A stretch of DNA of 64,000 nucleotides, from the NCBI GenBank assembly GCA_041082245.1, contig JBDOIE010000110.1, forward strand, positions 1,276-65,275, given 5' to 3'. The position numbers were made by a program, and so were the translations under genes. This document shows, one piece after another, positions 39,548 to 55,154 of this stretch. The stretch is from Chloroflexia bacterium. GTDB taxonomy: Bacteria; Chloroflexota; Chloroflexia; DTKN01. The notes under the pieces were generated by a model, which saw only the letters and a program-made list of their open reading frames with translations, ran no database searches and had not been told where the DNA came from. Numbering within the stretch: the first letter of the stretch is position 1; each line of letters begins with the position of its first letter.

Positions 39548-40228
39548 CTAGTCCGGCTCGATGTCCCTGCTGTTGTACTTCTCGGCCAGTTCCTCTTTCG
39601 ACATCGCCTTGAGGGCCGCGATCTCGGCGTCGTACTTGCCCGCTTCGATCTCCCGCACCCGTTCCGCCAGGTGCTGGGCGCGGGGCGCGATGTATCGCCC
39701 GTAGAGCCGCCGACAAAGGATGGCGATGTTGTACTGCACCTCCTCTGCCGGGCAGCGTGCTGCGCAAAGGCCGCACATGATGCAGTCGAACGACTTGTCG
39801 GCCACCGCCGCGATATCCCCGCGCATTGCGGCGGCCATATAAGCGCGCACGTCGATGTTCTGCGGGCACGCCTTCGTGCAGGTGCCGCACTGCAGGCAAC
39901 GAAGCACCTCAGGGTAAATCGAAAAGAGGGTTTCCGGGGTTGCCTTCAGTTCCTCCAGTTTGTACGGCCGGCGCTCGGCAGGGAAGAACGGGATCTGGGT
40001 GAGGTACATGTTCGGCTGCACAAGCGTGGCGCACGCCAGTCCGATGTGCAGCCGATAGTCCCCGGCAATCCGGTACACCGTCGCGCAGGCGCCACAGAAG
40101 CCGGCCCGACATCCACATCCCCGAAGGAGCCGATATCCGGCATACTCCATGGCACGCTGGATCGTCAGCGACGGGGGGACCATATACCGTTTGCCCATAA
40201 TGTAGATCGGGATGAGCTCCTCGGACAT
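39548..40228 (-). CDS. iron-sulfur subunit, SdhB/FrdB-like ([2Fe-2S] + two [4Fe-4S]-type Cys clusters)
   Basis: ...GCGCRAGFCGACATVY..., ...CLQCGTCTKACP..., ...CIMCGLCAARCP... AGGAGGAA RBS. Confidence 0.8.
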   Translation of the reverse strand: MSEELIPIYIMGKRYMVPPSLTIQRAMEYAGYRLLRGCGCRAGFCGACATVYRIAGDYRLHIGLACATLVQPNMYLTQIPFFPAERRPYKLEELKATPETLFSIYPEVLRCLQCGTCTKACPQNIDVRAYMAAAMRGDIAAVADKSFDCIMCGLCAARCPAEEVQYNIAILCRRLYGRYIAPRAQHLAERVREIEAGKYDAEIAALKAMSKEELAEKYNSRDIEPD

Positions 40229-40239
40229 CTCGGTTCCTC

Positions 40240-41367
40240 CTATCGCTCCACAACGTGCAGTTCATCCTCGCGGAAGACGGCCAGGGGCAGCTCTTCCTCC
40301 AGGCTTCGCCCGGCCTCGTAGTCGAAGAGCGCCTGGACCTCCTGCCCGATCGCGCGGAAGATGACCGTCAGCGGGATGTCGCTCGGACAACCATCCTCGC
40401 AGACCCCACACCCCACGCAGGAAGCCACCATGTGGTTCAAACGGGTGATCTGGAAGAGCAAGGTATCGGTCGGCATCCGCACGGCTCCCCGACGCCCAGC
40501 CCACTTCAGATACTGTTCCGAGGCGTGGTCGAACGTGGGGGTGCGGAAGATGCACTCCCGACAATAGCAGATCGGGCAGGTCACCGTGCAGTTGTGGCAC
40601 CGCAGGCACGCGGAAAAGAGCGAAAGCAACCCCTCACGGGTGCGTACCTGCTCGCGGAAAGCGGCGAAAGCCTCGTCGCGGCGCGCCAGCCGCGCCTCGC
40701 GTAGCCGGGCGATCGCCTCCTGCCGACCCGGCAGATCCCCCTCCTGAAGCCCCAGGACCCCGGCGAGTTCCGCGTGTGTCTCCTTCAGCTCCACCCCGAT
40801 TTCCTTCCGCGGATCCGTGCCGATCCACTCCAGCCGCACATCCACGCCCTGCGGCACGAAATGTTCGCAGATGCGGCAGGCCGTGCGCAGCTCCCGGTTC
40901 GGCCAGCGGAACCCTTCGGTCGGCTCGACGCTCTCCAGCAACCGCATCGTCAGGTCGGGTGTCTCCGCAACCATCGCGCCGTAATCGAGCACCCGGAAGG
41001 CACCGTAGCAGTCGACGCCGACGGTCAGCACACGGGCGAGGTTCACCTGGCGAAGCTTGGTCAACTCGACCGTGGCCCGCCACTCACACGGTTTCAGCAC
41101 CACGGCCAGCCGTTCCCGGGGTTCGGTGAAGGTCAACTGGGAAACCACCCGCGCCGATTGGATCGGCATCACCGGCGCGATCGGGTCGGCTTCCGCAAGG
41201 TGCGCCGGATCGCGCACCAGCGTTGGGACCAGGTTGCGCCCGTCGGGGGTAGCCACCGGGACCAGGACGCCGTCGACGACATTCTGCTCAAGCAGGAGAG
41301 CAAGCAGCCGCCTGAGCGTCCCCAGCGTGTCCCCTTGGGCAACAGGAACCGTTCCGCGAATTGGCAT
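40240..41367 (-). CDS. FrhB/FdhB/FpoF-like flavin- and FeS-binding protein (coenzyme F420 hydrogenase beta family) with C-terminal 2x[4Fe-4S] ferredoxin motifs
   Basis: ...CLRCHNCTVTCPICYCREC... and ...CVGCGVCEDGCP... AAGGAG RBS. Confidence 0.7.
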   Translation of the reverse strand: MPIRGTVPVAQGDTLGTLRRLLALLLEQNVVDGVLVPVATPDGRNLVPTLVRDPAHLAEADPIAPVMPIQSARVVSQLTFTEPRERLAVVLKPCEWRATVELTKLRQVNLARVLTVGVDCYGAFRVLDYGAMVAETPDLTMRLLESVEPTEGFRWPNRELRTACRICEHFVPQGVDVRLEWIGTDPRKEIGVELKETHAELAGVLGLQEGDLPGRQEAIARLREARLARRDEAFAAFREQVRTREGLLSLFSACLRCHNCTVTCPICYCRECIFRTPTFDHASEQYLKWAGRRGAVRMPTDTLLFQITRLNHMVASCVGCGVCEDGCPSDIPLTVIFRAIGQEVQALFDYEAGRSLEEELPLAVFREDELHVVER

Positions 41368-41400: not shown

Positions 41401-41826
41401 TCAGATCGCCCACTCCTTACGCATCGGGTTAGGGCCTTTCTCCTTAAGGTATTGCACCATCTCGGTCACGGTGTCGGCGAAGCGCCGCCCCTCGCTGGCG
41501 CTGATCCAGCGCAGCCACACACGGTCTTCTTCCAGGCCCAACTGTCGCAGCACGCTCTGGAGAATGGCCACCCGGCGGCGCGCCTTGTAGTTGCCGCTCT
41601 GGTAGTGGCAGTCCCCCGGGTGGCAACCGCCGATGAGGACGCCGTCCGCGCCCTCGATGAGCGCTTTCAGCACATAGACGGGGTCGACCGCCCCGCTGCA
41701 CATCAGCCGGATGATGCGGATGTTCGGCGGGTACTGGATGCGCGAGGTCCCCGCCAGGTCGGCGCCCGTGTAGGTGCACCAGTTACACAGGAAGGCGACG
41801 ATGCGGGGTTCGAACTCTTCGGGCAT
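41401..41826 (-). CDS. mvhD: methyl-viologen-reducing hydrogenase delta subunit (MvhD)-like [2Fe-2S] protein
   Basis: MPEEFEPRIVAFLCNWCTYTGADLAGTSRIQYPPNIRIIRLMCSGAVDPVYVLKALIEGADGVLIGGCHPGDCHY. The MvhD/FlpD family pattern. GGAGGAG RBS. The ORF's first 49 aa are trimmed. Confidence 0.75.
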   Translation of the reverse strand: MPEEFEPRIVAFLCNWCTYTGADLAGTSRIQYPPNIRIIRLMCSGAVDPVYVLKALIEGADGVLIGGCHPGDCHYQSGNYKARRRVAILQSVLRQLGLEEDRVWLRWISASEGRRFADTVTEMVQYLKEKGPNPMRKEWAI

Positions 41827-41896: not shown

Positions 41897-42541
41897 CTAG
41901 GTCGTGCGGATGTCGCGCAGTTCGGCATCCGCCTGCTGCACCGCCGTACGCACTTGGTCTTCCGTGATCCCACGTACCTTCATCGTGATGCGGCCGTGGC
42001 TGCGGTCCTCGCCGTAGAAGGTGCCCAGAGAGAGGATGTCGCCGCCCTGGCCAGCGATCGCGGAGGCGAGCCGGGCAAGCGAACCGGGCTCGTTTCGGAC
42101 CGCTACGCTGACCCGCAGCCCCTGCTCTCGGGCCCCCAGCATCTCCAGGAAGACCTTGAAGAGGTCTGTCTCGGTGATGATCCCCACCAGCCGGCCGTCC
42201 TCGACCACTGGCAGCCCACCGATCTTGTGGTCGACCATGATGCGCGCCGCCTCTTCGATCGGGCAATCCGGGCAAACGGTGATCACCTCGCGCGTCATGA
42301 TCTCCTTCACCTTGAGCTTGGAGAGCAGGTAGCCGATCTCGTAGACGCTCAGGCTGGTTGCGGGAGAAGGGGATGCGTAGAGCAGGTCCTTTTCCGAAAC
42401 GATCCCGAGAAGGTTTCCGTGTCGGTCGATCACAGGCAGGCGACGAACACGGTTCTGCCGCATGAAGCTCAGCGCTTCGGTCACCGAGGTATCCGGCTCG
42501 ATGGTAATCGGATGGGTGGACATACGCTCCTTTACCAGCAT
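41897..42541 (-). CDS. CBS-pair + ACT domain protein
   Basis: MLVKERMSTHPITIEPDTSVTEALSFMRQNRVRRLPVIDRHGNLLGIVSEKDLL...IMTREVITVCPDCPIEEAARIMVDHKIGGLPVVEDGRLVGIITETDLF... Then an ACT-like tail. GAGGAGGAG RBS. Confidence 0.7.
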   Translation of the reverse strand: MLVKERMSTHPITIEPDTSVTEALSFMRQNRVRRLPVIDRHGNLLGIVSEKDLLYASPSPATSLSVYEIGYLLSKLKVKEIMTREVITVCPDCPIEEAARIMVDHKIGGLPVVEDGRLVGIITETDLFKVFLEMLGAREQGLRVSVAVRNEPGSLARLASAIAGQGGDILSLGTFYGEDRSHGRITMKVRGITEDQVRTAVQQADAELRDIRTT

Positions 42542-42557
42542 GGCACTCCTCCTCTGT

Positions 42558-45500
42558 TCACTCCAGCGCCTCGTCGACCATCGCCACCAGCTGGGCTTTC
42601 TCGAAGCCCAGATGCTGGGTCGCACCGCTCGGACAAGCTACCGCACAGGCTCCGCATCCCTGGCAGAGGACCTCGATAACCTCCGCGACGCGGGTTTCTT
42701 CGTTCAGCACACGGGCATCGTACGGACAAACGGCCACGCAGAGGCCACACCCCTTGCAGAGCCGGCTGTTCACCTGGGCGACGATCGCCTGGCCTTCCAG
42801 ACGATCCTTGCTGAGCAGGGTGGCCGCCCGGACGGCGACTCCCTGTGCCTGCGCGATCGCATTCTCGATCGGCATCGGCGAGTGCGCCAGGCCGCAGAGG
42901 AAGATGCCGTCAGCGGCAAAGTCGAGCGGGCGCAGCTTCACGTGCGCCTCCAGGAAAAAGCGATCCTGCGTGAGCGGCACCTTGAGCATCTGCGCCAGGG
43001 CAGCCTGCTCCGGGCGCGGCACGATCCCCGTGCTCAGCACGAGCCAGTCGGCCGGCAGGCCGATCGGTTCTTCCCCCGGGCTGCGGACGGTGATACGCAG
43101 CGAATCGCCTTCCACACTGACCTCCGGCGGTTCCTCCGGCCGGTATTCGAGAAACACGACGCCCTGGCGCCGCGCCTCTTCGTAGTAGACTTCCTGGAAA
43201 CCGTAGGCGCGGATGTCGCGGAAGAGCACTGTTACCCGGGCGAGCGGTTCGAGACGTTTGAGCCGCAGCGCGTTCTTGAGCGCCGAAGCGCAGCAGATGC
43301 GCGAGCACCAGGGGTGCTCCTCGTTCCGCGATCCCACGCACTGGATCATCACCACGGAAGGCGGGCGCCCCAATCCGAGCACGGCGCCCGAGTGGTTCAC
43401 GAGCTGCGCCTCGAACTCCCGCTGGGTCAGGACGCGTGGATGCTGGCCGTACAGGTACTCCCCGGGCTTCGGTTCGTAGGCCTCCGCTCCGGTCGCAACG
43501 ACGATCGCGCCATGGGCGATCTCCTCCACGCGCCCTTCGCTGGCCAGGTGCACCCGGCTCACAAAGCGTCCCACGTATCCGCCGACCTCGAGCAGTTCGG
43601 CACGGGTATAGACACGGACGCGCGGATGCGCAAGCACCCGGGCGACCGTCTCCTGAAGGAGCGCCTGGGGGTCGTTCCCGTAAAGCGTGTAGTGGAGATG
43701 GCGGAGATGTCCGCCCAGTTCCGCTTCACGCTCGATCAGGGTGACCGGGAAGCCCTGCTCCGCCAGCGCAAGCGCGGCAACCATACCGGAGAGGCCCCCG
43801 CCGATCACCAGTGCGCTCTGCTCGATCTCGATCGACGGCCGGTAGATCGGGCGCAATCGCAACGCCTTGGCGACCGCCATGCGCACGAGGTCCTTGGCCT
43901 TTTCCGTCGCTTCCTCCGGTGTCGCCTTGTGCACCCAGGAATCCTGTTCCCGGATGTTCGTCATCTCGAAGAGGTAAGGGTTCAGTCCCGCTTCGCGGAT
44001 CGTGTCCTGGAAGAGCGGCTCATGGGTGCGCGGGGTACACGAGGCCACGACCACGCGGTTCAGGCGCAGCTCGCGCACGGTGTCCGTGATCTTCTTCTGG
44101 GTATCCTGCGAGCAGGTATACAGGTTATGCTCCGCGTACGCGACGCCCGGCAGGGTGCGCGCATACTCCACCACCGCAGGGACATCTACCACGCTCCCGA
44201 TGTTGATCCCGCAGTGGCAGATGAACACCCCGACGCGCGGTTCCTCGAAACGCACGTCCAGTTCGGGCGGGTAGGTCTTGCTTCGCGTGAGCGTGCCACG
44301 CGCGGGGGCCAGCAGCCGGGCCGCGGCTGCTGCTGCCGCCGACGCTTCCACCACCGTTTCCGGGATGTCCTTCGGCCCCCGGAAGGCCCCGGCGACAAAG
44401 ATCCCCGGGCGCGAAGTCTCGACCGGCGCAAACTCGGACGTCTGGGCGAAACCGTAGCGGTTCAACCGCACCCCCAGCCGCTCCGCAAGCGCCCGCGCCT
44501 CCGTTCCCGCGACCAGCCCCACCGACAGGACAACGAGGTCGAACTGCTCCTCCACCACCGCCCCGTCGGGCCGGGTGTAGGTGAGACGCAGGTCGCGGGT
44601 CTCGGGGTCCTCCTTCAGCGAGGAGATGAAGGAACGGATGTAGCGCACCCCGTGCTCGCGCATCGCGGTCTCGTAGTAGGCATCGAACCCCTTCCCGAAT
44701 GCCCGCACATCCAGGAAAAAGATCGTCGGCTCGATATCCGGCGCGTGCTCACGGGCGATGATCGCCTCCTTGGTCGCGTACATGCAGCAGACCGAAGAGC
44801 AGTAGTTCTGGTCGCAGCGGCTTTCGCGCGAGCCGATGCACTGGATCCAGGCGATGCGGCGGGGTTCGCGTCCGTCGGAAGGGCGGGTGATGTGCCCGGC
44901 GAAGGGACCCGAGGCCGAGAGCATCCGTTCGAACTCGATCGAGGTGAGGACATTCGGATACCGGCCGTAGCCGAACTCTTCCTTCAGCCGGGCATCGTAC
45001 AGCCCGACCCCCGGGGTCAGGATGACCGCCCCCACCTCGAGCGCCCGCACCTCTTCCGTCATCTCGTGGTTGACCGCTCCGGCCTTGCAGGCGCGGGCGC
45101 ACGCGAGGCATTCGGAGCAGATGCCGCACTCCAGGCACCGCTCCGCCTCTGCGCGTGCTTCTTCCTCACTCAGCGGGAGATCCACTTCCACGAAGGAACG
45201 TATCCGTTCTTCCACCGGCCGCTGCTTCTTCTGCAGCCGTGGCCGCATCACGATTCGCCCCTCTGCCCGGGCGGAGGCAATCTCCTCGTCGCTCAGCTCG
45301 ACCACCGGCTGCAGCACCGGTTCCCGCAGCCCCGCTTCGCCGCGCAGGTAGCGATCGATCGCGCGCGCGGCGCGGTGTCCGGCGGCGATCGCGTCGACCA
45401 CGAACGTGGTTCCGGTCACCGCGTCGCCCCCGGCAAAGACGCCCGGACGGGACGTCATCAGCGTCTCCGGATCCACGACAAGCGTGCCGTTCCGGCGCAC

Positions 45501-47030
45501 TTCCAGCCCGGCCGCGGCGAAAAAGCCGGTCTGCGGCACCTGACCGATGGCAAAGATCACCACGTCGGCCGGCAGGACGTGCTCCGTACCGGGCCGCACG
45601 TCCATATCCGGCCGTCCGTCCGGGTGAAAGCCGCGGAAATCCACTTCTGCGCACCGGACGCCGGCCACGTGCCCATCCCGGGAAACGATCTCCAGGAAGG
45701 TGCGGGAGGGAAAGATCCGCACGCCCTCTTCCTCCGCCTCCTCGATCTCCCAGGGGTGCGCAGGCATCTGGCCGCGCGATTCCAGGCAGGCCGCGCCGAC
45801 CTCCCGGGCCCCCAGGCGAAGCGCGGTGCGGGCGCAGTCCATCGCGACGTTTCCGCCTCCCAGCACAAGCACCTGCTTGCCCGTAAGGTCGGGCGGCCGG
45901 CCCAGGGCGGTCTCGCGGAGGAACTCGGTGTTCAGCAGCACCTCCGGCAGGTCCGCCCCGGGTATCGAGAGTTTGCGCCCCTGGTGCGCGCCCACGGCCA
46001 GGAACACGGCCTGGAAGCCGGAGGAGAATAGCGCGTCCAGATCCTCGACCCGCGTATTCAGTTTCAACTCCACTCCCTGGGCCAGGATGGCATCGATCTC
46101 GCGCTGCACAAGCTCGTAAGGCAGCCGGTAGGCCGGGATCCCCACGCGCATCATCCCGCCGGCGACCGGCAGCGCTTCAAAAACGGTCACCTGGTAGCCT
46201 AACCGGGCCAGATCGAGCGCGCAGGTAAGCCCTGCCGGCCCGGCGCCCACGACCGCCACCCTCCCCAGCGGCTCCTGGTCGGGGGAGCGCTTTTCCTGAG
46301 CGGCAGGCACAGAAACGCCGTTCGTCCATGCCCAATCGACGACGAAGCGCTTGAGGCGCATGATGGAAAGTGGCTCGTCCACACGGCCTCGCGAGCAGGC
46401 GTCTTCGCAGCGGTGGTTGCAGATGCGGCCGCAGATCGCCGGGAAGGGGTTGTCCTCCAGGATGGTACGGTACGCTTCCTCGTACCGGCCCTGGTGGACG
46501 AGCGCGATGTACCCCTCGGCGCGCTGGTGGATCGGGCAGGCGTTGCGACAGGGCGCTGTACCCCGTTTCTCGATCGCGAAGGCGTTCGGTGTGGCTTGGG
46601 GATAGAGCTTGTAAGTCGCTTTGCGCGTGGAGAGGTTCGCGTTGAACGGGTCCGGCAGCACGATAGGGCAGGCCTCGGCACAGTCGCCGCAGCCCGTGCA
46701 CTTGCTCAGGTCGATGAAGCGCGGCCGCTGGCGCACGTATGCGGTAAAGCGCCCTGGTTCCCCTTCGACTCGCTCGAGCTCGGCCATGGTGAGGATCTCG
46801 ATGTTCAGGTGTCGGCCGCACTCGACGAGCTTCGGGGAGAGGATACACATCGCGCAGTCGTTTGTGGGGAACGTCTTGTCCAGCATGGCCATCGTTCCCC
46901 CGATGGCCGCGGCCTTTTCCACAAGGTAGACCTTGAAGCCGGAGTTCGCCAGGTCGAGAGCGGCCTGCATCCCTCCGATGCCGCCGCCCACAACGAGTAC
47001 CGCGCCGACAACGCCTTTCTCTTCCATCAT
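42558..47030 (-). CDS. 1490-aa multi-domain flavo-FeS oxidoreductase: HdrA-like + glutamate-synthase-small-subunit(GltD)/NfnB-like + second HdrA-like module + ferredoxin domains
   Basis: MMEEKGVVGAVLVVGGGIGGMQAALD... is the HdrA FAD site. It has several CxxCxxCxxxCP clusters, a GltD-like segment (RVAVVGAGPAGLTCA...VLVLGGGNVAMDCA), and a second HdrA-like module with CCMYATK / VASCTPRTHE motifs. It ends in 2x[4Fe-4S] (CKGCGLCVAVCP, CQGCGACAVACP). Confidence 0.8.
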   Translation of the reverse strand: MMEEKGVVGAVLVVGGGIGGMQAALDLANSGFKVYLVEKAAAIGGTMAMLDKTFPTNDCAMCILSPKLVECGRHLNIEILTMAELERVEGEPGRFTAYVRQRPRFIDLSKCTGCGDCAEACPIVLPDPFNANLSTRKATYKLYPQATPNAFAIEKRGTAPCRNACPIHQRAEGYIALVHQGRYEEAYRTILEDNPFPAICGRICNHRCEDACSRGRVDEPLSIMRLKRFVVDWAWTNGVSVPAAQEKRSPDQEPLGRVAVVGAGPAGLTCALDLARLGYQVTVFEALPVAGGMMRVGIPAYRLPYELVQREIDAILAQGVELKLNTRVEDLDALFSSGFQAVFLAVGAHQGRKLSIPGADLPEVLLNTEFLRETALGRPPDLTGKQVLVLGGGNVAMDCARTALRLGAREVGAACLESRGQMPAHPWEIEEAEEEGVRIFPSRTFLEIVSRDGHVAGVRCAEVDFRGFHPDGRPDMDVRPGTEHVLPADVVIFAIGQVPQTGFFAAAGLEVRRNGTLVVDPETLMTSRPGVFAGGDAVTGTTFVVDAIAAGHRAARAIDRYLRGEAGLREPVLQPVVELSDEEIASARAEGRIVMRPRLQKKQRPVEERIRSFVEVDLPLSEEEARAEAERCLECGICSECLACARACKAGAVNHEMTEEVRALEVGAVILTPGVGLYDARLKEEFGYGRYPNVLTSIEFERMLSASGPFAGHITRPSDGREPRRIAWIQCIGSRESRCDQNYCSSVCCMYATKEAIIAREHAPDIEPTIFFLDVRAFGKGFDAYYETAMREHGVRYIRSFISSLKEDPETRDLRLTYTRPDGAVVEEQFDLVVLSVGLVAGTEARALAERLGVRLNRYGFAQTSEFAPVETSRPGIFVAGAFRGPKDIPETVVEASAAAAAAARLLAPARGTLTRSKTYPPELDVRFEEPRVGVFICHCGINIGSVVDVPAVVEYARTLPGVAYAEHNLYTCSQDTQKKITDTVRELRLNRVVVASCTPRTHEPLFQDTIREAGLNPYLFEMTNIREQDSWVHKATPEEATEKAKDLVRMAVAKALRLRPIYRPSIEIEQSALVIGGGLSGMVAALALAEQGFPVTLIEREAELGGHLRHLHYTLYGNDPQALLQETVARVLAHPRVRVYTRAELLEVGGYVGRFVSRVHLASEGRVEEIAHGAIVVATGAEAYEPKPGEYLYGQHPRVLTQREFEAQLVNHSGAVLGLGRPPSVVMIQCVGSRNEEHPWCSRICCASALKNALRLKRLEPLARVTVLFRDIRAYGFQEVYYEEARRQGVVFLEYRPEEPPEVSVEGDSLRITVRSPGEEPIGLPADWLVLSTGIVPRPEQAALAQMLKVPLTQDRFFLEAHVKLRPLDFAADGIFLCGLAHSPMPIENAIAQAQGVAVRAATLLSKDRLEGQAIVAQVNSRLCKGCGLCVAVCPYDARVLNEETRVAEVIEVLCQGCGACAVACPSGATQHLGFEKAQLVAMVDEALE

Positions 47031-47031: not shown

Positions 47032-50000
47032 CTATGCCTCGTGGTCCTTCAGAGGGTGCGTTTCCCCTGCCGGCAGGGCAATATAGAAAGTTGCCCCCTG
47101 GCCCGGTTCGCTCTTGACCCAGACGTGCCCTCCGTGGGCACGGACGAGCAGCCATGCAATGTGAAGCCCCAGTCCGGTTCCTTCTTCCTGTCGCACGAGC
47201 GGATGGTCGCTCCGGAAAAAGCGGGTGAAGAGGCGACGCTGGTCCTGCCGGCTGAGGCCGATCCCGGTATCCTGCACGGTCAGCACGATACAGGGAAGCT
47301 GTATCACCCGCTCGACCTGTCCATCCCCTGGGATCTGCTCCGGATCCTCAACCCTCCGGAGCCTCACGACGACCGTCCCGGGCGCCGGAGTGTACTTGTA
47401 TGCGTTCGACAGCAGGTTGTCGAGCACCTGGACCATGCGCTCCCGGTCCGCCTCCACGGCCGGGACGTCGTCGGGCAGATCCAGCTCCAGCCGAAGCCCC
47501 TTACGCTCCATCCGCGGCCGCCAGGTGGCCGCGCACTCCAGGGCCACTTCCTGAAGGTAGAGCGGAGCCCTACGGAGCTGGATACGACCGGCCTCGATGC
47601 GGCTGACCTCGAGGAGGTCCTTCACCAGTGCGTCCAGTCGGGCGATGTTCGACTTGAGCACGGCCAGGAAGCCGCGCAATGTCCCGACATCCACCCGTTC
47701 GCCTTCCTGCTCGATCAACTCGGCATAGCCCCAGATGGTCCCCATCGGAACCTGCAGCTCATGGGCCACCCGGGAGAGGAACTCTCCTTTCGCCTCGTAG
47801 GCCTGCCGGAGCGCCTGGTAGAGGCGCGCGTTCTCGATCGCCGTCGCGGCCTGGTTCGCAAAGATCTCCAGCATTTCGATCGTATCCCGCGAAGGGACCT
47901 GGCGGTCGGCCGGGTCATCGACCGAAAGGATCCCGAGGAGGCGGTCCCGCCCGCGGAGCGGGACAAAGAGCGCACACCGCTCGTTCCACTCTCCAGGCTG
48001 ACGCGGGCCGAGATCCGGGATGTAGACCCCCTGGTCGCCGTGCGGCTCCCACTGGAGCGCCTCCTCAGGGCCGATCAGGTAGCTGTGGCTGACGCGCCAC
48101 TCCGGGCGCATTACTGCCTCGTACATCGCGAGCGGTGGATGCTCTGCCTGCATCCGCTTCAGCACCGCAGGATCCAGGCCGACTGCTGCCGCGCGCCGTA
48201 CGACGGTCGGGTCCTCCTCATCGGCCAGACTGAGCAGGACGATACGGAAACCCAGCGTATCTCGGATCGCCTCGACCACGAGCTGCAACACCTGGTCGAG
48301 CTCCATGTTCGCCCGCAGGGCGTTTCCCAACTTGAGCACCTCGGCGAGGTGACGCGCACGTCGATCCAGGCCGTCCCGCTGCTGGACAAGTTGCTGGTAG
48401 AGGAGCGCGTTCTCGAGCGCGACGGCGGCGTGGTCCGCCACATGGCGGAGAAACAGCCGGGCATCTTCATCGACCGTCCGCCCGGGTGCCATCACCAGGT
48501 GCAGAAAGGCCAGCAGGTTGTCCTCGCGGATGAGCGGGCAGAACAGGTGCAACGGATTTCCCTCGAGCGGGGGGGCTCCTGCGGGGATCGCGTCGTGGGG
48601 CAGCGCGAGCACCGGTTCCTCTGCCTCCAGCAGTGCCGGCAAGAGCGCTTGCCAAACCTCGTGCCATCGCGCGTCCGAGGGCCACTCGACGGTGACCAGG
48701 GGAGAACAGCTCTGGGCTTCCCCCTGGCAATGCACGAGCGCGCCCTGTGTCGCTTCGATCGCTTCACAGGCTACCTCAAGCGTCTCTTCCGCGACCTGCC
48801 TGGGGTCCAGCGCAACACAGGCCAGGGTGCGCGCAAAGCGAGCCAGCCGGCTGAGTTCCTCGAGCCGCCGGTCCAGCGCCCGATCCATCTGCTCGATGAG
48901 CCGGGCGTTCTCGATGGCAACGGCTGCCTGGTTCGCGACCGCGCTCAGGAGCGTCAGGTCTTCGACTTCGAACGTGCGCTCGGGGTCGTGGCTGTGCACC
49001 GCCAGGAACCCCAGCGGCCGGCCGGCGTGCACGATCGGCACGCCCATCCAGGCAGTCGGTGTGCGGCCACTCCCATCCAGCCCCAGGCTGCGAACCGTCT
49101 CCTCCACCTGTTCCCGAATCAGCAAGGGTTGCTTGGTCCGAATCAGGTAATCGCCCAGACGGTTGCCGCCACGGCGCGGCGGGCGGAAAACGCGTTGCCC
49201 GTCTTCCGTAGCGATCGGGAAGGACATCTCATCGCGCTCGCTATCGTACAGGCCCAGCTCAAAGTTTGTCGTATCCAGAACCTTGCCCGTCAGCTCGTAG
49301 ATCGCCTCCAGCACCTCGGATAGCCGATGCGCAGCGTTGATCTCGCGGCCGATCTCGTTCAACGCCGCAAGTTGCCGCACGCGCCGTTCGCGCTCCGAGA
49401 AGAGACGCGCATTTTCGACCGCGACCGCTGCCCGGTCCGCGAGCGCCTCCAGCAGTTCCAGCTCCTCGGCGTCGTACCGCTCACCGGATCGCTTCTCGCC
49501 AAGGTTGAGCCACCCGACCAGCCGCCCCTGGATCGATAAGGGGAGAAAGAACGCCGCCTGCAAGCGAGCGACGCGTTGACGCTCTTCCTCGGGCAAGGTG
49601 TTCAGCCACCGCTCTCTCATCGGATCGTTTGGCACCGCTGCACGGGTACCGTGCAACCGGGTAACCAACCGGTCCGTTTCGTGAAAGACGGGCGCCTGCG
49701 CCGGGTCGAGAGCGGGGACGCTCCCGTAGAGACGGTAATGGCCCCGGGAAGGCTCGAAGAGGTACAGGGACGCCCGATCCAGGTGCATCGCCCCCACGAT
49801 CCGCTGCAGGATGGTGTCGCACAGGTCGGGCAGGGCCATCAGTTGTCCCAGCGATTGAGCGAATGCCTGCACCGTGCGGCGAAAGTTCACACGCTCCCGA
49901 TACAGCAACCGATCGACCGCCTCGCGCAGGTACCGTTGTAGCGGGGCGACCAGGATGGCCGCCAGGATAATCAGGAAGGCCAGGCCAACTGGTTCGTCTG

Positions 50001-51171
50001 GCCGGATCCATCCGGGGGCGATCCGGCTTGCGGCCAGCACGATGGCCAGGAACGCTCCCGTGGCCAGGATCACAAGCAGGCTATAGACCAACCCCTGGCG
50101 CAGGACATAGTCCAGGTCCAGGAGCTGCTCCCGCGCGACGGCATAGGCCAGCGCCATTGGAAAAGCGAGCAGTGGCCCATATATGAGGAGGAGGTGCGCA
50201 TCGTAGCTGAGGAAGGCCAACCCGGAGAGAAATGCGAAAGCTGCTGGCAGGAAGGCCATCGTGCTGCCGATCAGGATCGCGCGCGCTTGCCGGCGCACGC
50301 GCGCGTCAAGAGGGAAGTACAGCCTCCAGAGCATGCTGCCAATCAGGACCAGGGCAGCCAGGCACACCCAGACATATATCCACCGCCACGGCCGCAAAAA
50401 CGCTTCCGGATCGACACCCAGCGACCGGTTTCGCTGGTCCCAGGCGATGAGTGCCGCTGCAGGGAGGTAGCCCAGCCAGGCCAGCCCGGGGCGTCGACGC
50501 AATCCGGGTAACGGTTGGGGGAACAGCAACGCCAGGTGGATGCCCCCCGCCGCTGTGAGCGGAAGGCCCAACGCCCAGACATGGTGCAGATGCTGGCCGG
50601 TAAACGCGTCGAAGAACAGGGCGCTGCTCAGGGCGATCCCGGCGCACAACATCGTGCACGCTGCGGCATCCGCTTCCGCGCGCCCGTGAAAAACCCACAA
50701 GCCACAGGACAGGTATGTCAGGGCGACTACGTAGGGGCCCCAGAAGAGCAGCGCAAGGTCCCGCGTCCGCCACCTGCCCACCGGCACGGCGACCGTTTTC
50801 CGCTGGCCGTCGGGATCTTCCACGTCGTAGCGCACGATAGAACCAGGTGCGAGCCCCCTGAGGTAAACGTAGAGATCGGCCGGCCGTCGAATCGTGAGAC
50901 CGTCTGCCCCAACAATCCGCTGCGGAAAGCGCAGTCCGGCAGCCAGTCCGGCCCACTCGGGGCGTCCGATGCGGCTCACAGCCCGGGTGGGCTCCACAAG
51001 AAAACCCGGAAAGGGCCGATGCCCCTGCTCAAGCGCCAGGAAAGGTGTCACGAGGCACGCCAGAGTGGCCACTGCAAGCCAGATGCCCGCAACCACCCGC
51101 TCCAGGCGTCGGCCCGGGGAAAGGTTTCGTCCTTTCCTGTTGCCCCGAAACAGCTTGAAACGCGGAGACAT
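47032..51171 (-). CDS. multi-GAF sensor histidine kinase with N-terminal membrane/sensor region
   Basis: An N-terminal TM, a roughly 110-aa extracytoplasmic segment and about 7 TM helices. At least four GAF domains. HisKA (VAHELQVPMGTIWGY), then HATPase_c (DTGIGLSRQDQRRLFTRFFR...GTGLGLHIAWLLV). ATG after GAGGG; alternative GTG at 51192. Confidence 0.85.
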   Translation of the reverse strand: MSPRFKLFRGNRKGRNLSPGRRLERVVAGIWLAVATLACLVTPFLALEQGHRPFPGFLVEPTRAVSRIGRPEWAGLAAGLRFPQRIVGADGLTIRRPADLYVYLRGLAPGSIVRYDVEDPDGQRKTVAVPVGRWRTRDLALLFWGPYVVALTYLSCGLWVFHGRAEADAAACTMLCAGIALSSALFFDAFTGQHLHHVWALGLPLTAAGGIHLALLFPQPLPGLRRRPGLAWLGYLPAAALIAWDQRNRSLGVDPEAFLRPWRWIYVWVCLAALVLIGSMLWRLYFPLDARVRRQARAILIGSTMAFLPAAFAFLSGLAFLSYDAHLLLIYGPLLAFPMALAYAVAREQLLDLDYVLRQGLVYSLLVILATGAFLAIVLAASRIAPGWIRPDEPVGLAFLIILAAILVAPLQRYLREAVDRLLYRERVNFRRTVQAFAQSLGQLMALPDLCDTILQRIVGAMHLDRASLYLFEPSRGHYRLYGSVPALDPAQAPVFHETDRLVTRLHGTRAAVPNDPMRERWLNTLPEEERQRVARLQAAFFLPLSIQGRLVGWLNLGEKRSGERYDAEELELLEALADRAAVAVENARLFSERERRVRQLAALNEIGREINAAHRLSEVLEAIYELTGKVLDTTNFELGLYDSERDEMSFPIATEDGQRVFRPPRRGGNRLGDYLIRTKQPLLIREQVEETVRSLGLDGSGRTPTAWMGVPIVHAGRPLGFLAVHSHDPERTFEVEDLTLLSAVANQAAVAIENARLIEQMDRALDRRLEELSRLARFARTLACVALDPRQVAEETLEVACEAIEATQGALVHCQGEAQSCSPLVTVEWPSDARWHEVWQALLPALLEAEEPVLALPHDAIPAGAPPLEGNPLHLFCPLIREDNLLAFLHLVMAPGRTVDEDARLFLRHVADHAAVALENALLYQQLVQQRDGLDRRARHLAEVLKLGNALRANMELDQVLQLVVEAIRDTLGFRIVLLSLADEEDPTVVRRAAAVGLDPAVLKRMQAEHPPLAMYEAVMRPEWRVSHSYLIGPEEALQWEPHGDQGVYIPDLGPRQPGEWNERCALFVPLRGRDRLLGILSVDDPADRQVPSRDTIEMLEIFANQAATAIENARLYQALRQAYEAKGEFLSRVAHELQVPMGTIWGYAELIEQEGERVDVGTLRGFLAVLKSNIARLDALVKDLLEVSRIEAGRIQLRRAPLYLQEVALECAATWRPRMERKGLRLELDLPDDVPAVEADRERMVQVLDNLLSNAYKYTPAPGTVVVRLRRVEDPEQIPGDGQVERVIQLPCIVLTVQDTGIGLSRQDQRRLFTRFFRSDHPLVRQEEGTGLGLHIAWLLVRAHGGHVWVKSEPGQGATFYIALPAGETHPLKDHEA

Positions 51172-51216
51172 CGGCCCTCGATTCAGTCGCACCCTCGCGG
51201 CCCCTGCGCCGCGGTG

Positions 51217-54251: not shown

Positions 54252-55129
54252 GGTGTGCCCACCTTCTCGGGAATGCGCGCCAGGAGCGGGGATGGATCGA
54301 CCGTGTGCCGCTCGAAGCCGAAGCCCTCCGTTTCCAGCCCGAGGGCGATCCCCAACACCTGGGTGATGTAGAACACCGGCAACGGCCGGAAACCCGGATA
54401 ACGCACGGCCATCTCCTGCTGGGGATGGTCCAGGTTGTAGTGGCAGAGGGGACAGCTTGTGACCAGGGCATCCGCACCGCTGACACGCGCCGCATGCAGG
54501 ATACGGTAGGAGGCATCGCGCGCGATATCTGGCGCTCCCACCGCCAGGTAGGACCCGCAGCACTCCCCGCGATGGGGATACAGCACCGGCTCAGCCCCGA
54601 GCGCCGCGAGGAAATCCTCGAACAGGTGCGGCATTTCCGGGTCGTCCAGAGCGATCTCGTCGGCCGGGCGAAGTAGGAAGCAGCCGTAGTAGGCGGCCAG
54701 CCGCAGGCCCTCCAGCGGTCGCACCACGCGCTGGCGCAGCGCTTCGAACCCGAGCCGGTCACGCAACAGGTCGAGCAGGTGCAAGACACGGACGCGCCCA
54801 TCGTACTGTGCTTCGATGAAGGCGTTGATCCGCTCGCGCCGCGCCTCATCCTCGCGCATCACCCGATTGGCACGCTTGGTCACGTTGTAACAGGTCGAGC
54901 AAAGTGCCAGGAGCTCTTCCTGTCCCATTTCGGCGGTGCGCACCAGGTTGCGCACCGCGCCGGCCAGCCGAAGGTCATCGTTGGTCAGAGGAAATGCCGC
55001 TCCGCAGCAGTTCCACTCGGGGATCTCGCGCAACACGATCCCCAGCGCTTCCAGGGATGCCCGCGCGGAACGATCGAGCCCCTGGGCCTTGGTGCTCAGG
55101 GTACATCCGGGGAAATAGGCGATCTCCAT
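54248..55129 (-). CDS. hdrB: heterodisulfide reductase subunit B (two CCG domains)
   Basis: MEIAYFPGCTLSTKAQ...EWNCCGAAF...YYGCFLLRP...GECCGSY...TSCPLCHYN. Two CCG motifs. Confidence 0.85.
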   Translation of the reverse strand: MEIAYFPGCTLSTKAQGLDRSARASLEALGIVLREIPEWNCCGAAFPLTNDDLRLAGAVRNLVRTAEMGQEELLALCSTCYNVTKRANRVMREDEARRERINAFIEAQYDGRVRVLHLLDLLRDRLGFEALRQRVVRPLEGLRLAAYYGCFLLRPADEIALDDPEMPHLFEDFLAALGAEPVLYPHRGECCGSYLAVGAPDIARDASYRILHAARVSGADALVTSCPLCHYNLDHPQQEMAVRYPGFRPLPVFYITQVLGIALGLETEGFGFERHTVDPSPLLARIPEKVGTP

Positions 55130-55154
55130 CTCCCGGTCTCCTTCTCAGCGGCCC

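What the first reader, a model, noticed from the sequence alone, without database searches (positions are those of the whole stretch)
42558..47030. Giant 1490-aa fusion of two HdrA-like modules with a GltD/NfnB-like NAD(P)H module and multiple ferredoxin domains
One polypeptide strings together an HdrA-type FAD site, a glutamate-synthase-small-subunit-like NAD(P)H:FeS module, a second HdrA-like thioredoxin-reductase-fold module (CCMYATK, CTPRTHE) and a terminal 2x[4Fe-4S] ferredoxin domain. By my count it has about ten Cys clusters. This looks like a hard-wired bifurcation core (HdrA + NfnB-like) and is much larger than typical HdrA (about 650 aa).
Basis: seen in the sequence. Interest (0 to 1): 0.55.

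Follow-up and report, generated by a model that had tools for sequence, protein, structure and literature searches.

The report
Long NADH-linked HdrA fusion (HdrL)

Summary
The ORF at 42558..47030 (- strand) is one intact 1490-aa, 162.7-kDa gene. More than 120 homologues match it end to end.

Its anatomy is a first HdrA half (FAD domain plus a split ferredoxin domain) that carries a nested, circularly permuted GltD/StnC-type FAD and NAD(P)H cassette at aa 159-637. A second HdrA half follows: N-terminal FeS domain, FAD domain and a 2x[4Fe-4S] tail. I predict three FAD, one NAD(P)H site (NADH-type Glu417) and 8-9 [4Fe-4S] clusters from 38 conserved Cys.

This matches, nearly residue for residue, the published description of Moorella thermoacetica HdrA in the MetFV-HdrABC-MvhD complex. 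That protein is 162.8 kDa, has its second module at 922-1487, and oxidises NADH. The same architecture is called HdrL in Desulfobacterium and Syntrophobacter.

Full-length relatives occur in 80 of the 80 retained species genomes, spanning at least eight phyla. MvhD lies in the locus in 73 of them.

What is less usual is the context. Here and in 13 of 80 related loci, HdrL clusters with MvhD, an FdhB-like adaptor, an FeS protein, a TfrA-like flavoprotein, HdrCB, a split HdrA pair and fumarase.

Verdict: a real, correctly parsed member of a known kind. The one lead worth following is a possible NADH-dependent, ferredoxin-coupled soluble fumarate reductase.

The parts
42558..47030 (-). hdrL: a single 1490-aa ORF (162.7 kDa), a long HdrA of the Moorella/HdrL type
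46716..47030 (-). aa 1-105: start of the first thioredoxin-reductase-fold FAD domain (GGGIGG at 15-20). It contains the FPTNDC59AMC62 motif, the counterpart of HdrA Cys197.
46557..46715 (-). aa 106-158: first half of the inserted ferredoxin domain (C111, C114, C117, C121)
45120..46556 (-). aa 159-637: nested GltD/StnC-type cassette. It has two [4Fe-4S] sites (C161, C165, C200, C204, C208, C212, plus C632 and C635 from the permuted segment, and Lys227), an FAD site (GAGPAG 262-267) and an NAD(P)H site (GGGNVA 391-396, Glu417).
45051..45119 (-). aa 638-660: second half of the inserted ferredoxin domain (C638, C641, C644, C648)
44256..45050 (-). aa 661-925: remainder of the first FAD domain. It carries Glu701 and Lys754 (the bifurcating-flavin signature) and the HA4-type cluster C731, C744, C748, C749.
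43836..44255 (-). aa 926-1065: N-terminal (MvhD-like) FeS domain of the second HdrA module (C938, C940, C973, C998)
42786..43835 (-). aa 1066-1415: second FAD domain (GGGLSG 1077-1082, Glu1207, Lys1252, cluster C1231, C1242, C1246, C1247). It has no inserted ferredoxin domain and no Cys197 motif.
42561..42785 (-). aa 1416-1490: C-terminal 2x[4Fe-4S] ferredoxin domain (C1425-1435 and C1456-1466)
41401..41826 (-). mvhD (141 aa, FlpD family), the conserved partner of HdrL
40240..41367 (-). FdhB-like FeS adaptor (375 aa), homologous to the FdhB subunit of methanogen Fdh-Hdr complexes
39548..40228 (-). FeS protein (226 aa) with a [2Fe-2S]-like motif plus two CxxCxxCxxxCP motifs. Its layout resembles FrdB/TfrB-N, but sequence similarity is weak.
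37916..39517 (-). TfrA-like flavoprotein of the SdhA/FrdA/NadB superfamily (533 aa). The fumarate-site residues are present; the His that binds FAD covalently is replaced by Asn.
41897..42541 (-). CBS-CBS-ACT protein (214 aa) between hdrL and mvhD. Among the 80 related species loci only L001 has it; the near-identical relatives L081-L083 have it too.
47032..51192 (-). Membrane GAF-GAF-GAF histidine kinase (1386 aa) inserted between hdrA(C) and hdrL. Its stop codon lies 1 nt before the hdrL ATG. The closest relatives lack it.
51217..52929 (-). Split HdrA, C-type half (570 aa): N-terminal FeS domain, FAD domain and C-terminal ferredoxin. It aligns end to end with HdrL module 2 (41% identity).
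52929..54251 (-). Split HdrA, N-type half (440 aa): FAD domain, inserted ferredoxin and Cys197 motif. It aligns end to end with HdrL module 1 once the cassette is removed (43% identity).
54248..55129 (-). HdrB-like protein (293 aa, two CCG domains)
55155..55562 (-). HdrC-like 2x[4Fe-4S] protein (135 aa)
55584..57136 (-). Class I fumarate hydratase, alpha and beta subunits (two ORFs, 56153..57136 and 55584..56189), at the head of the cluster

Best explanation
The gene encodes a long HdrA of the Moorella/HdrL type. It is a covalent pseudo-heterodimer of two complementary HdrA halves.

The first half has the FAD domain, the Cys197-type motif and the inserted ferredoxin domain. The second half has the N-terminal FeS domain, the FAD domain and the C-terminal di-cluster ferredoxin. 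A StnC/GltD-type NADH:FeS oxidoreductase cassette is nested in the ferredoxin domain of the first half.

Proposed mechanism, with the basis of each step:
- NADH is oxidised at the cassette FAD. This is inferred from the motifs here and was shown for the Moorella homologue.
- Electrons pass one at a time through the two cassette [4Fe-4S] clusters and the two clusters of the split ferredoxin domain to the HdrA-type FAD of the first module (inferred).
- That flavin carries the Glu/Lys bifurcation signature. It is proposed to split the electron pair between a high-potential branch and a low-potential branch. The second half, MvhD and the partner subunits provide the wiring (inferred by analogy with HdrABC-MvhAGD and with BamE/BamF).
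- In this genome the high-potential end is most probably fumarate. It would be reached through MvhD, an FdhB-like adaptor, an FeS protein and a TfrA-like flavoprotein. HdrCB and a split HdrA pair belong to the same system.

The net reaction proposed is 2 NADH + fumarate + oxidised ferredoxin -> 2 NAD+ + succinate + reduced ferredoxin. The identity of the protein is well supported. The bifurcation step and the acceptors are inference.
For: Identity:
- The ORF is intact and matches 120 homologues end to end.
- Module 2 aligns to methanogen HdrA residues 9-242 and 325-653. It therefore lacks the inserted ferredoxin domain and the Cys197 motif, both of which module 1 has.
- Module 1 without the cassette aligns end to end with the neighbouring HdrA(N) (43%), and module 2 with HdrA(C) (41%).
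- Mass (162.70 kDa), module 2 boundaries (925-1490) and the residues Glu701, Lys754, Glu1207 and Lys1252 correspond to the published Moorella HdrA values: 162.8 kDa, 922-1487, and E696, K750, E1204, K1246 (PMC9430772). That HdrA oxidises NADH at 190 U/mg with benzyl viologen (PMC9430772, PMC5861303).

Cassette:
- It scores above the PRK12771 cutoff.
- Its closest solved relatives are 9bov_A, 9n5u_A and StnC 8oh5_C, both by sequence and by the AF2 model (pLDDT 83).
- The NfnL 5-47 segment aligns to aa 595-637, which demonstrates the permutation.
- Lys227 is invariant, as is StnC Lys170.
- Glu417 replaces the Arg-Arg of NADPH enzymes in 141 of 151 homologues.

Cofactors: 38 conserved Cys fall into motifs for 8-9 clusters.

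Partners:
- MvhD lies in the locus in 73 of 80 loci and HdrB nearby in 53 of 80.
- The TfrA-type cluster is conserved in 13 of 80 loci across Chloroflexota, Bacillota and Aerophobetes, with fumarase in the locus in three of the thirteen (L002, L030, L033) and adjacent to the cluster in the window and in the near-identical relatives L081-L083.
- The 375-aa protein is homologous to the FdhB that links FdhA to MvhD/HdrA in solved methanogen complexes.
- The TfrA-like protein keeps HPTG, TE..RG, R-x4-R, PTxHY and HGxNRL, and has Asn in place of the covalent-FAD His.

Structural precedent: BamE is a fused HdrA dimer that uses the MvhD homologue BamF (bioRxiv 10.64898/2026.04.10.717634).
Against: - No member of this family has been shown to bifurcate. 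The second acceptor of the Moorella complex is still unknown, and the Sporomusa Hdr-type enzyme showed no bifurcation (PMC9430772, PMC5861303).
- The cassette sits in the domain that docks ferredoxin in methanogen HdrA. Where a low-potential acceptor would bind is therefore unclear.
- In canonical HdrA and in BamE, MvhD lies on the electron-input path, not on a high-potential exit. A fumarate reductase at the end of that arm does not map simply onto the known wiring.
- The TfrA-like protein reaches no NCBIfam equivalog cutoff (362.8 bits against 718 for TfrA).
- The 226-aa FeS protein is only weakly FrdB-like.
- Both FAD domains carry the Glu/Lys signature, whereas only one does in BamE. Which flavin bifurcates is therefore open.
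Confidence: 0.6

Rival explanations
1. Non-bifurcating electron wire. HdrL would simply channel NADH electrons through its FeS chain to the partner enzyme, here the fumarate-reductase-like flavoprotein, without coupling to ferredoxin. This is how non-bifurcating HdrA relatives such as Qmo and sHdrA work.
For: - NADH to fumarate is strongly exergonic and needs no coupling.
- Non-bifurcating HdrA homologues exist (cited in PMC9430772).
- No bifurcation was demonstrated for the Moorella or Sporomusa enzymes (PMC9430772).
- The StnC-type cassette FAD is non-bifurcating (PMC10482914).
Against: - The Glu/Lys signature used to distinguish bifurcating HdrA flavins is invariant in both FAD domains.
- A simple NADH:fumarate reductase would not need three flavins, about nine clusters, MvhD, HdrCB and a second HdrA pair, all kept together across phyla.
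Confidence: 0.22
2. Two bifurcating flavins in series. The GltD/NfnB-like FAD would bifurcate NAD(P)H as in NfnB, and its low-potential branch would feed the HdrA-type bifurcating FAD.
For: - The cassette is homologous to NfnB, whose FAD is the bifurcating site.
- Chadwick et al. raised this possibility for ANME-1 HdrA-NfnB fusions (PMC9012536).
- BCRII shows that two bifurcation modules can be coupled (bioRxiv 10.64898/2026.04.10.717634).
Against: - There is no NfnA-like high-potential partner in the polypeptide or in this cluster.
- The cassette is closer to StnC and NfnABC subunits than to NfnB.
- It carries the StnC-type Lys227 instead of the NfnB Glu, and the StnC FAD lost the ability to bifurcate (PMC10482914).
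Confidence: 0.1
3. NAD(P)+ takes the place of ferredoxin. Because the cassette occupies the ferredoxin-docking domain, NAD+ would be the lower-potential acceptor (or NADH the co-donor in confurcation). The electron pair would enter or leave through MvhD from another partner: hydrogenase in some lineages, HdrCB thiols here.
For: - The insertion lies exactly in the inserted ferredoxin domain.
- [NiFe]-hydrogenase genes flank HdrL-MvhD in 9 of 80 loci.
- MvhD is the input adaptor in solved complexes (PMC5861303; bioRxiv 10.64898/2026.04.10.717634).
Against: - The Moorella homologue acts as an NADH oxidase towards dyes and methylene-THF (PMC9430772, PMC5861303).
- With fumarate at the end of the MvhD arm, electrons must leave by that arm, not enter by it.
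Confidence: 0.07
4. Assembly or annotation artefact: two or three separate genes joined by a sequencing error.
For: None found. Separate N-type and C-type HdrA genes do exist next door, which shows that the unfused state is viable.
Against: - 120 full-length homologues.
- 80 species-level genomes with collinear matches.
- Three independent assemblies call the same 1489-aa gene.
- Uniform coding signature.
Confidence: 0.01

Closest known systems
HdrA of the Moorella thermoacetica MetFV-HdrABC-MvhD complex (Mock et al. 2014, as described in PMC9430772 and PMC5861303)
   Same: - Same size: 162.8 against 162.7 kDa, about 1487 against 1490 aa.
- Same order: ferredoxin domain plus FAD domain interrupted by a GltD domain, then an MvhD-like N-domain, a second FAD domain and a C-terminal ferredoxin, with no inserted ferredoxin in the second module.
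- Glu/Lys signature in both FAD domains at nearly the same positions.
- MvhD and HdrCB partners.
- Family members at 53-57% identity sit in MetV-MetF-HdrCB clusters.
   Different: - Here the cluster carries a TfrA-like flavoprotein, an FeS protein, an FdhB-like adaptor, a split HdrA pair and fumarase instead of MetFV.
- I could not obtain the Moorella sequence for a direct alignment. The match rests on published coordinates.
HdrL of Desulfobacterium autotrophicum and Syntrophobacter fumaroxidans (PMC2702500, PMC5947623)
   Same: [quoted passage not shown]
- The Syntrophobacter locus order HdrABC-FeS-MvhD-HdrL matches the Syntrophales loci found here.
   Different: - Some HdrL proteins contain selenocysteine or extra domains; this one is all-Cys.
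- A sulfur or DsrC role is proposed there. No dsr genes were seen among the window ORFs that I annotated.
BamE/BamF of class II benzoyl-CoA reductase (bioRxiv 10.64898/2026.04.10.717634)
   Same: - Fused HdrA dimer in the same order, with the first FAD domain carrying a Cys59/Cys62 pair.
- MvhD-type adaptor and a C-terminal ferredoxin.
- Paralogues lacking the cassette lie next to HdrL in many loci.
   Different: - BamE has no GltD cassette; NADH enters through BamGHI.
- Its second FAD has Gln768 instead of Lys and is non-bifurcating, whereas HdrL keeps Glu/Lys in both domains.
StnC / NfnABC large subunit GltD cassette (PDB 8oh5_C, 9bov_A, 9n5u_A; PMC10482914)
   Same: - Best sequence and fold matches to aa 159-645.
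- Same permuted order, with the RCxxC segment after the Rossmann domains.
- Lys at the proximal cluster.
- The cassette is inserted into another FeS domain and feeds a separate bifurcating module.
   Different: - The host there is a NuoG/FdhF-like protein and the bifurcating module is HydBC-like.
- StnC uses NADPH, whereas HdrL has the NADH-type Glu417.
- HdrL has an extra conserved Cys200.
ANME HdrA variants (HdrA3/4 fused tandem; HdrA9-11 with an NfnB-like insert; PMC9012536)
   Same: - Complementary presence of the N-terminal domain and of Cys197 between the two fused halves.
- A roughly 500-aa NfnB-like insertion interrupting the inserted ferredoxin domain.
   Different: - In ANME HdrA3/4 the half bearing the N-terminal domain comes first; here it comes second.
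- As described there, the ANME proteins carry either the fusion or the insert. This protein has both.
Methanogen HdrA (PDB 5odc_A, 8rvu_a, 7bkb_A)
   Same: All four HdrA domains and all six cluster motifs are present when the two modules are taken together. The FAD domains carry the Glu356/Lys409 equivalents.
   Different: - The features are distributed over two complementary modules in one chain.
- Scores fall below the NCBIfam equivalog cutoffs.
- No methanogenic context.
Thiol:fumarate reductase TfrAB of Methanothermobacter, and tfrAB-flx-hdr clusters in rTCA gene clusters (PMC6315080)
   Same: - TfrA is the best NCBIfam match for the 533-aa neighbour.
- A non-covalent-FAD fumarate-reductase signature.
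- Genomic linkage of a soluble fumarate reductase to Hdr modules.
   Different: - The TfrB fusion (FeS plus CCG domains) is replaced by separate FeS, FdhB-like, MvhD and HdrCB proteins.
- The score is half the TfrA cutoff.

Membership tests
Long HdrA of Moorella type / HdrL | Single polypeptide of about 1490 aa and about 163 kDa | tested here: met
   1490 aa, 162.70 kDa, against 162.8 kDa and about 1487 aa in PMC9430772
Long HdrA of Moorella type / HdrL | N-terminal ferredoxin domain plus FAD domain interrupted by a GltD domain that carries FAD, NAD(P)H and [4Fe-4S] sites | tested here: met
Long HdrA of Moorella type / HdrL | C-terminal module made of an MvhD-like N-domain, an FAD domain and a C-terminal ferredoxin, without an inserted ferredoxin domain | tested here: met
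   aa 925-1490 align to HdrA 9-242 and 325-653
Long HdrA of Moorella type / HdrL | Glu/Lys bifurcation signature in both FAD domains | tested here: met
   Glu701, Lys754, Glu1207 and Lys1252 are invariant or nearly so in 151 sequences
Long HdrA of Moorella type / HdrL | mvhD in the same locus, usually directly downstream, with hdrB/hdrC in the cluster | tested here: met
   mvhD lies one gene downstream here. It is present in 73 of 80 loci and HdrB in 53 of 80.
Long HdrA of Moorella type / HdrL | Association with metV and metF (Hdr-type methylene-THF reductase) | tested here: not met
   I found no metV or metF among the window ORFs that I annotated; a TfrA-like set is present instead. MetFV is present in 29 of 80 related loci.
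Long HdrA of Moorella type / HdrL | NADH:benzyl viologen oxidoreductase activity; FAD content | not testable with these tools
   Biochemical assay needed. Only the motifs (Glu417, GxGxxG) could be read.
Long HdrA of Moorella type / HdrL | Direct sequence orthology to Moth HdrA or to D. autotrophicum HdrL | not tested
Methanogen HdrA (NCBIfam NF041778 / NF040770) | Whole-protein score above the curated cutoff | tested here: not met
   986.5 bits against 1100 (HdrA2) and 698.1 against 1400 (HdrA)
NfnB (bifurcating subunit of NfnAB) | N-terminal CxxC segment preceding the FeS/Rossmann domains (collinear order) | tested here: not met
   Permuted: NfnL 5-47 aligns to aa 595-637, after the Rossmann domains
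NfnB (bifurcating subunit of NfnAB) | Glu ligand at the proximal [4Fe-4S] cluster | tested here: not met
   An invariant Lys227 aligns with NfnL Glu and StnC Lys170 (PMC10482914)
NfnB (bifurcating subunit of NfnAB) | NfnA (PyrK-like, [2Fe-2S], FAD, NAD) partner | tested here: not met
   None among the 13 genes of the cluster. An NfnA-like gene is present only in the Syntrophales loci.
StnC/NfnABC-type GltD cassette | Permuted GltD module inserted in another FeS domain, with Lys at the proximal cluster | tested here: met
   Collinear alignment to 8oh5_C 96-573, 9bov_A 102-574 and 9n5u_A 105-602; top Foldseek hits
StnC/NfnABC-type GltD cassette | NADPH specificity | tested here: inconclusive
   C-L-E417-S-R replaces Y-R-R in 141 of 151 sequences, which suggests NADH. 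The binding preference itself was not measured.
TfrA / soluble fumarate reductase (the 533-aa neighbour) | Catalytic His/Arg set of the fumarate site and non-covalent FAD | tested here: met
   HPTG, TE..RG, R-x4-R, PTxHY and HGxNRL are present; Asn stands at the covalent-His position
TfrA / soluble fumarate reductase (the 533-aa neighbour) | NCBIfam TfrA equivalog cutoff | tested here: not met
   362.8 bits against 718

The most novel reading that the evidence does not exclude
The conserved cluster comprises fumarase, HdrC, HdrB, the split HdrA pair, HdrL, MvhD, an FdhB-like adaptor, an FeS protein and a TfrA-like flavoprotein. It is found here and in 13 of 80 related loci, in Chloroflexota, Bacillota and Aerophobetes. 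It may encode a class of flavin-based electron-bifurcating enzyme that has not yet been described: a soluble NADH-dependent fumarate reductase that also reduces ferredoxin. The fumarate/succinate couple would play the role that crotonyl-CoA or methylene-THF plays in known systems.
Probability: 0.3. Interest if true: 0.6.

Novelty: new member of a known kind. Interest (0 to 1): 0.28.

Why it matters
The fusion itself adds nothing new for specialists. The architecture was named in 2009, the Moorella protein was purified in 2014, and the domain map was published in 2022.

Three things are useful.

(a) A clean anatomical reading: HdrL is the tandem N-type and C-type HdrA pair fused in gene order, with a permuted StnC-type NADH cassette dropped into the ferredoxin domain. 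This ties together observations that were described separately for Moorella, sulfate reducers, ANME archaea, BamE and Stn.

(b) A census showing that one core is reused with different partners: MetFV (29 of 80 loci), TfrA-like (13), Nfn-like/HdrCB (12) and [NiFe] hydrogenase (9).

(c) The TfrA-linked variant. If it is a bifurcating fumarate reductase, it would add a new exergonic partner reaction to flavin-based bifurcation. It would also change energy budgets for fumarate respiration or the reductive TCA branch in uncultured Chloroflexota.

Tried and rejected
- **Frameshift or fusion artefact:** rejected.
- **Classical NfnB reading of the insert:** downgraded after alignment showed the permutation, Lys227 and closer StnC/NfnABC relatives.
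- **Loss of the catalytic Arg in the TfrA-like protein:** I first suspected this from 'RDVESA'. The HMMER alignments place R-E-C-Q-E-R on the R-D-x-x-x-R motif, so I dropped the suspicion.
- **AprA/Qmo reading of the split HdrA pair plus flavoprotein:** not supported. The best families are TfrA, SdhA and NadB.
- **Looking up the window protein's own contig:** no record.
- **Reading Mock et al. 2014:** not held in the library. I relied on PMC9430772 and PMC5861303 instead.
- **Search for the phrase 'bifurcating fumarate reductase':** no papers. The HdrA evolution preprint contains no mention of fusions or GltD.
- **UPGMA clustering of context classes:** uninformative, because the closest loci had been removed as duplicates.
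- **Tracing FeS distances from the AF2 model:** not possible, because coordinates are not exposed.
- **Full-length structure prediction:** not possible, because the limit is 1200 aa.

Full report
**1.

The - strand of 42558..47030 carries one ATG-started ORF of 1490 codons with no internal stop. Its codon-position GC (GC1 0.71, GC2 0.47, GC3 0.84) matches the other genes of this 66% GC window. A GAGG lies 6 nt upstream of the ATG, inside the end of the preceding histidine-kinase gene, whose TAG stop is 1 nt from the ATG.

A search of 5.8 billion proteins returned 7999 hits at E <= 1e-50. The best 120 are all 1477-1629 aa and cover 99-100% of the query at 59-91% identity. The exact sequence is in NCBI, in a cluster whose named member is annotated 'FAD-dependent oxidoreductase [Chloroflexia bacterium]'. 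The 91%-identical relative was called as one 1489-aa gene in three independent assemblies.

**2. Anatomy**

Pfam and NCBIfam give three kinds of match:
- HdrA matches in several stretches;
- a GltD-type module at about 150-660 (PRK12771, 557.8 bits, above its cutoff of 516);
- a C-terminal 2x[4Fe-4S] domain.

*Module 2.* Residues 925-1490 align with Methanothermobacter HdrA (8rvu) residues 9-242 and 325-653. Module 2 therefore has the N-terminal FeS domain, the thioredoxin-reductase-fold FAD domain and the C-terminal ferredoxin domain. It lacks the inserted ferredoxin domain. It also lacks the 'FPTLDCSMC' motif that supplies Cys197.

*Module 1.* The first module starts directly with the FAD domain. 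It carries FPTNDC59AMC62 and has the inserted ferredoxin domain, which is split by the roughly 480-aa cassette.

*Relation to the neighbouring split genes.* With the cassette removed, module 1 aligns end to end with the neighbouring 440-aa HdrA(N) gene product (43% over 426 aa). Module 2 aligns end to end with the neighbouring 570-aa HdrA(C) (41% over 576 aa). HdrL is thus the tandem N-type/C-type pair fused in gene order, plus a cassette. The complementary distribution of the N-domain and Cys197 is the pattern that Chadwick et al. interpreted as a built-in heterodimer (PMC9012536). BamE has since been shown by cryo-EM to be such a fused HdrA dimer (bioRxiv 10.64898/2026.04.10.717634).

**3. 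The cassette**

Residues 159-565 align with P. furiosus NfnI-L residues 50-473. NfnL residues 5-47, including the first RCxxC, align with HdrL residues 595-637, that is, after the Rossmann domains. The module is therefore circularly permuted relative to NfnB.

It is collinear with the GltD-like parts of 9bov_A (Caldicellulosiruptor NfnABC), 9n5u_A (Thermococcus NfnABC) and 8oh5_C (Sporomusa StnC). These are the best hits both by sequence and by fold for an AF2 model of residues 1-930 (mean pLDDT 83, pTM 0.71). HdrA 5odc_A also matches that model, across the insert (TM 0.60 normalised to the target).

In StnC the GltD FAD is non-bifurcating and Lys170 ligates the proximal cluster, where NfnB has Glu (PMC10482914). 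HdrL has an invariant Lys227 at that position.

At the NAD(P)H site, 141 of 151 homologues have C-L-E417-S-R where NADPH-dependent relatives have Y-R-R. From established knowledge of Rossmann-fold specificity, I infer a preference for NADH.

**4. Cofactor count**

Of the 45 Cys, 39 are at least 90% conserved across 151 full-length homologues. Thirty-eight of them group as follows:
- C59, C62;
- C111, C114, C117, C121;
- C161, C165, C200, C204, C208, C212;
- C632, C635, C638, C641, C644, C648;
- C731, C744, C748, C749;
- C938, C940, C973, C998;
- C1231, C1242, C1246, C1247;
- C1425, C1428, C1431, C1435;
- C1456, C1459, C1462, C1466.

The 16 Cys between residues 111 and 648 fit four clusters: two of the split ferredoxin domain and two of the cassette. 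The total is nine predicted [4Fe-4S] sites. Kremp et al. predicted eight for the Moorella protein.

There are three FAD sites (GxGxxG at 15-20, 262-267 and 1077-1082) and one NAD(P)H site.

The Glu/Lys pair used to recognise bifurcating HdrA flavins is present and invariant in both FAD domains: Glu701/Lys754 and Glu1207/Lys1252.

**5. It is a known kind**

- Strittmatter et al. [quoted passage not shown]
- It was detected as an abundant HdrABC/HdrL complex in Syntrophobacter (PMC5947623).
- Kremp et al. (2022) describe M. thermoacetica HdrA as follows (PMC9430772). It is 162.8 kDa. Residues 922-1487 form an MvhD-like domain, a TrxR domain and a C-terminal ferredoxin, without the inserted ferredoxin. 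The N-terminal part is a ferredoxin domain and a TrxR domain interrupted by a GltD domain. They predict three FAD and one NAD(P)H site, and find E696, K750, E1204 and K1246 conserved.
- The window protein is 162.70 kDa, with the corresponding features at 925-1490 and at E701, K754, E1207 and K1252.
- The Moorella protein was purified within the MetFV-HdrABC-MvhD complex. It oxidises NADH (190 U/mg with benzyl viologen). It is proposed, but not shown, to bifurcate, and its second acceptor is unknown (PMC5861303; PMC9430772).

I could not fetch the Moorella or Desulfobacterium sequences. Orthology therefore rests on these published coordinates, and on the fact that family members at 53-57% identity to the window protein sit in MetV-MetF-HdrCB clusters of the Moorella type.

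**6. Distribution and partners**

A scan of one genome per species found 582 loci encoding relatives. The 80 retained are all full length at 49-79% identity. They come from:
- Chloroflexota;
- Syntrophales, Smithella and Syntrophus;
- other Thermodesulfobacteriota;
- Acidobacteriota;
- Bacillota;
- Armatimonadota;
- Aerophobetes;
- Thermotogae;
- one Thermoplasmatota archaeon.

Partner genes in these 80 loci:

| Partner | Loci (of 80) |
|---|---|
| MvhD in the locus | 73 |
| HdrB-like nearby | 53 |
| MetF + MetV | 29 |
| TfrA-like | 13 |
| NfnA-like + FeS + HdrCB (Syntrophales) | 12 |
| [NiFe] hydrogenase | 9 |

Many loci also hold a paralogue that is the same double HdrA without the cassette (query residues 21-155 plus 638-1482), with its own MvhD. 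That is a BamE/BamF-like pair. HdrL is therefore a modular NADH-linked HdrA core, reused with different terminal enzymes.

**7. This window's context**

Thirteen genes lie head to tail on the - strand from 57136 to 37916, with gaps of 70 nt or less:

1. fumarase alpha
2. fumarase beta
3. HdrC-like
4. HdrB-like (two CCG domains)
5. HdrA(N)
6. HdrA(C)
7. a GAF histidine kinase
8. HdrL
9. a CBS-ACT protein
10. MvhD
11. a 375-aa FdhB-like protein
12. a 226-aa FeS protein
13. a 533-aa TfrA-like flavoprotein

The 375-aa protein is homologous to the FdhB subunits that connect FdhA to MvhD/HdrA in solved methanogen complexes (9t1s_M, 8rvu_E, 7bkb_E).

The flavoprotein's best family is TfrA (362.8 bits, below the cutoff of 718). 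It keeps the fumarate-site residues and has Asn where succinate dehydrogenases have the covalent-FAD His. From established knowledge of complex II enzymes, this favours the reductase direction.

The 226-aa protein has a [2Fe-2S]-like motif and two CxxCxxCxxxCP motifs, but only weak similarity to FrdB.

The same gene set recurs in 13 of 80 loci, including a Bacillota MAG and an Aerophobetes MAG. Gene order is shuffled. In L006, for example, an HdrCB fusion sits between HdrA(N) and HdrA(C), directly before MvhD, FdhB', the FeS protein and TfrA. Fumarase lies in the locus in three of those thirteen (L002, L030, L033), and it heads the cluster in the window and in the near-identical relatives L081-L083. 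The histidine kinase is absent from the closest relatives and is a recent insertion.

**8. Mechanism**

*Shown in homologues:* NADH oxidation by this type of HdrA; the fused HdrA dimer with an MvhD-type adaptor in BamE; a non-bifurcating cassette FAD in StnC.

*Inferred here:* NADH passes electrons to the cassette FAD, then through two cassette clusters and two ferredoxin-domain clusters to the FAD of module 1. That flavin bifurcates. Module 2, MvhD and the FdhB-like adaptor wire the core to the TfrA-like enzyme. By analogy with Bcd-Etf and with the proposed Moorella reaction, the most likely net reaction is 2 NADH + fumarate + oxidised ferredoxin -> 2 NAD+ + succinate + reduced ferredoxin.

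*Weak points:*
- Bifurcation is unproven for the whole family.
- The cassette occupies the canonical ferredoxin-docking domain.
- MvhD is an input adaptor in the solved complexes.
- Both flavins carry the signature.

The rival readings cannot be excluded without biochemistry or a complex structure. They are a plain NADH wire, NAD+ taking the place of ferredoxin, and two bifurcating flavins in series.

**9. Verdict**

The protein is a new member of a known kind.

The TfrA-linked cluster is the only lead worth following. I found no paper using the phrase 'bifurcating fumarate reductase'. I found only passing notes of frdA/tfrAB next to hdrA and mvhD, in Thiomargarita and in rTCA clusters (PMC4914600, PMC6315080).

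Noticed in passing
window 47032..51192 (-): A 1386-aa membrane histidine kinase with three to four GAF domains sits inside the hdr operon. Its stop codon is 1 nt from the hdrL ATG, and the hdrL Shine-Dalgarno lies inside its last codons. The 91%-identical relatives (L081-L083) have only a roughly 400-nt spacer there. L002 has a 53%-identical kinase at the same place.
   Followed up: partly
window 41897..42541 (-): A CBS-CBS-ACT protein (214 aa) is wedged between hdrL and mvhD. Among the 80 related loci only L001 has it; the near-identical relatives L081-L083 have it too. It may be a nucleotide- or metabolite-sensing regulator of the complex.
   Followed up: no
window 51217..54251 (-) and 54248..55562 (-): A complete second Hdr set (HdrC, HdrB, and a split HdrA whose N-type and C-type halves are complementary in the same way as the two modules of HdrL) lies directly upstream. 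The fused and unfused versions of the same heterodimer coexist in one operon.
   Followed up: partly
L019, L024-L026, L028, L038, L043, L048, L050, L069, L076, L080 (upstream of their HdrL genes): These loci carry a paralogue that is the same double HdrA without the GltD cassette (it matches query residues 21-155 and 638-1482). It has its own mvhD and lies immediately upstream of hdrL-mvhD, forming a BamE/BamF-like pair. The deletion boundaries coincide with the cassette boundaries.
   Followed up: partly
window 45120..46556 (-), HdrL aa 159-637: The GltD cassette is circularly permuted relative to NfnB and GltD: the N-terminal RCxxC segment of NfnL aligns after the Rossmann domains. It shares this order with StnC and the NfnABC large subunits. 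This suggests a mobile NAD(P)H:FeS cassette that inserts into ferredoxin-like domains of different bifurcating enzymes. HdrL also has an extra conserved Cys200 that StnC and NfnL lack.
   Followed up: partly
L020 14839..17999; L032 5605..9981; L027 14941..21584: Other partner sets were found for HdrL-MvhD. In a Chloroflexi MAG: MetV plus a [NiFe] hydrogenase, next to acsD/acsE-like genes. In Acidobacteriota: a [NiFe] hydrogenase with a HycI protease. In Syntrophales: FeS-HdrC-HdrB-Fer4_22, two PyrK/NfnA-like proteins and a separate GltD-like protein, behind a sigma-54 two-component system.
   Followed up: partly
window 42462..46031 (+): A 1189-aa ORF runs antisense to hdrL. Neither it nor the window's other long overlapping alternative-frame ORFs survived my GC3-minus-GC2 selection of non-overlapping ORFs, and I did not compute its codon-position GC. 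I take it to be a by-product of the high G+C content rather than a gene.
   Followed up: partly
window 37916..39517 (-): The TfrA-like flavoprotein has an 85-aa N-terminal extension before its FAD motif. This extension is conserved in the relatives (tblastn matches start at residue 1). The protein is also shorter at the C-terminus than SdhA or FrdA. No family cutoff is reached, so it appears to be a distinct subfamily.
   Followed up: partly
window 33379..34761 (+); 22663..24318 (-); 27977..29446 (-); 29464..31554 (+): Four unrelated genes elsewhere in the window: a SelA-like selenocysteine synthase gene (the homologous gene in L081 carries a SelA Pfam annotation), although HdrL itself is all-Cys; an MttB-family methyltransferase; a URO-D/MtaA-like protein; and an ADP-forming acetyl-CoA synthetase-like protein.
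   Followed up: no
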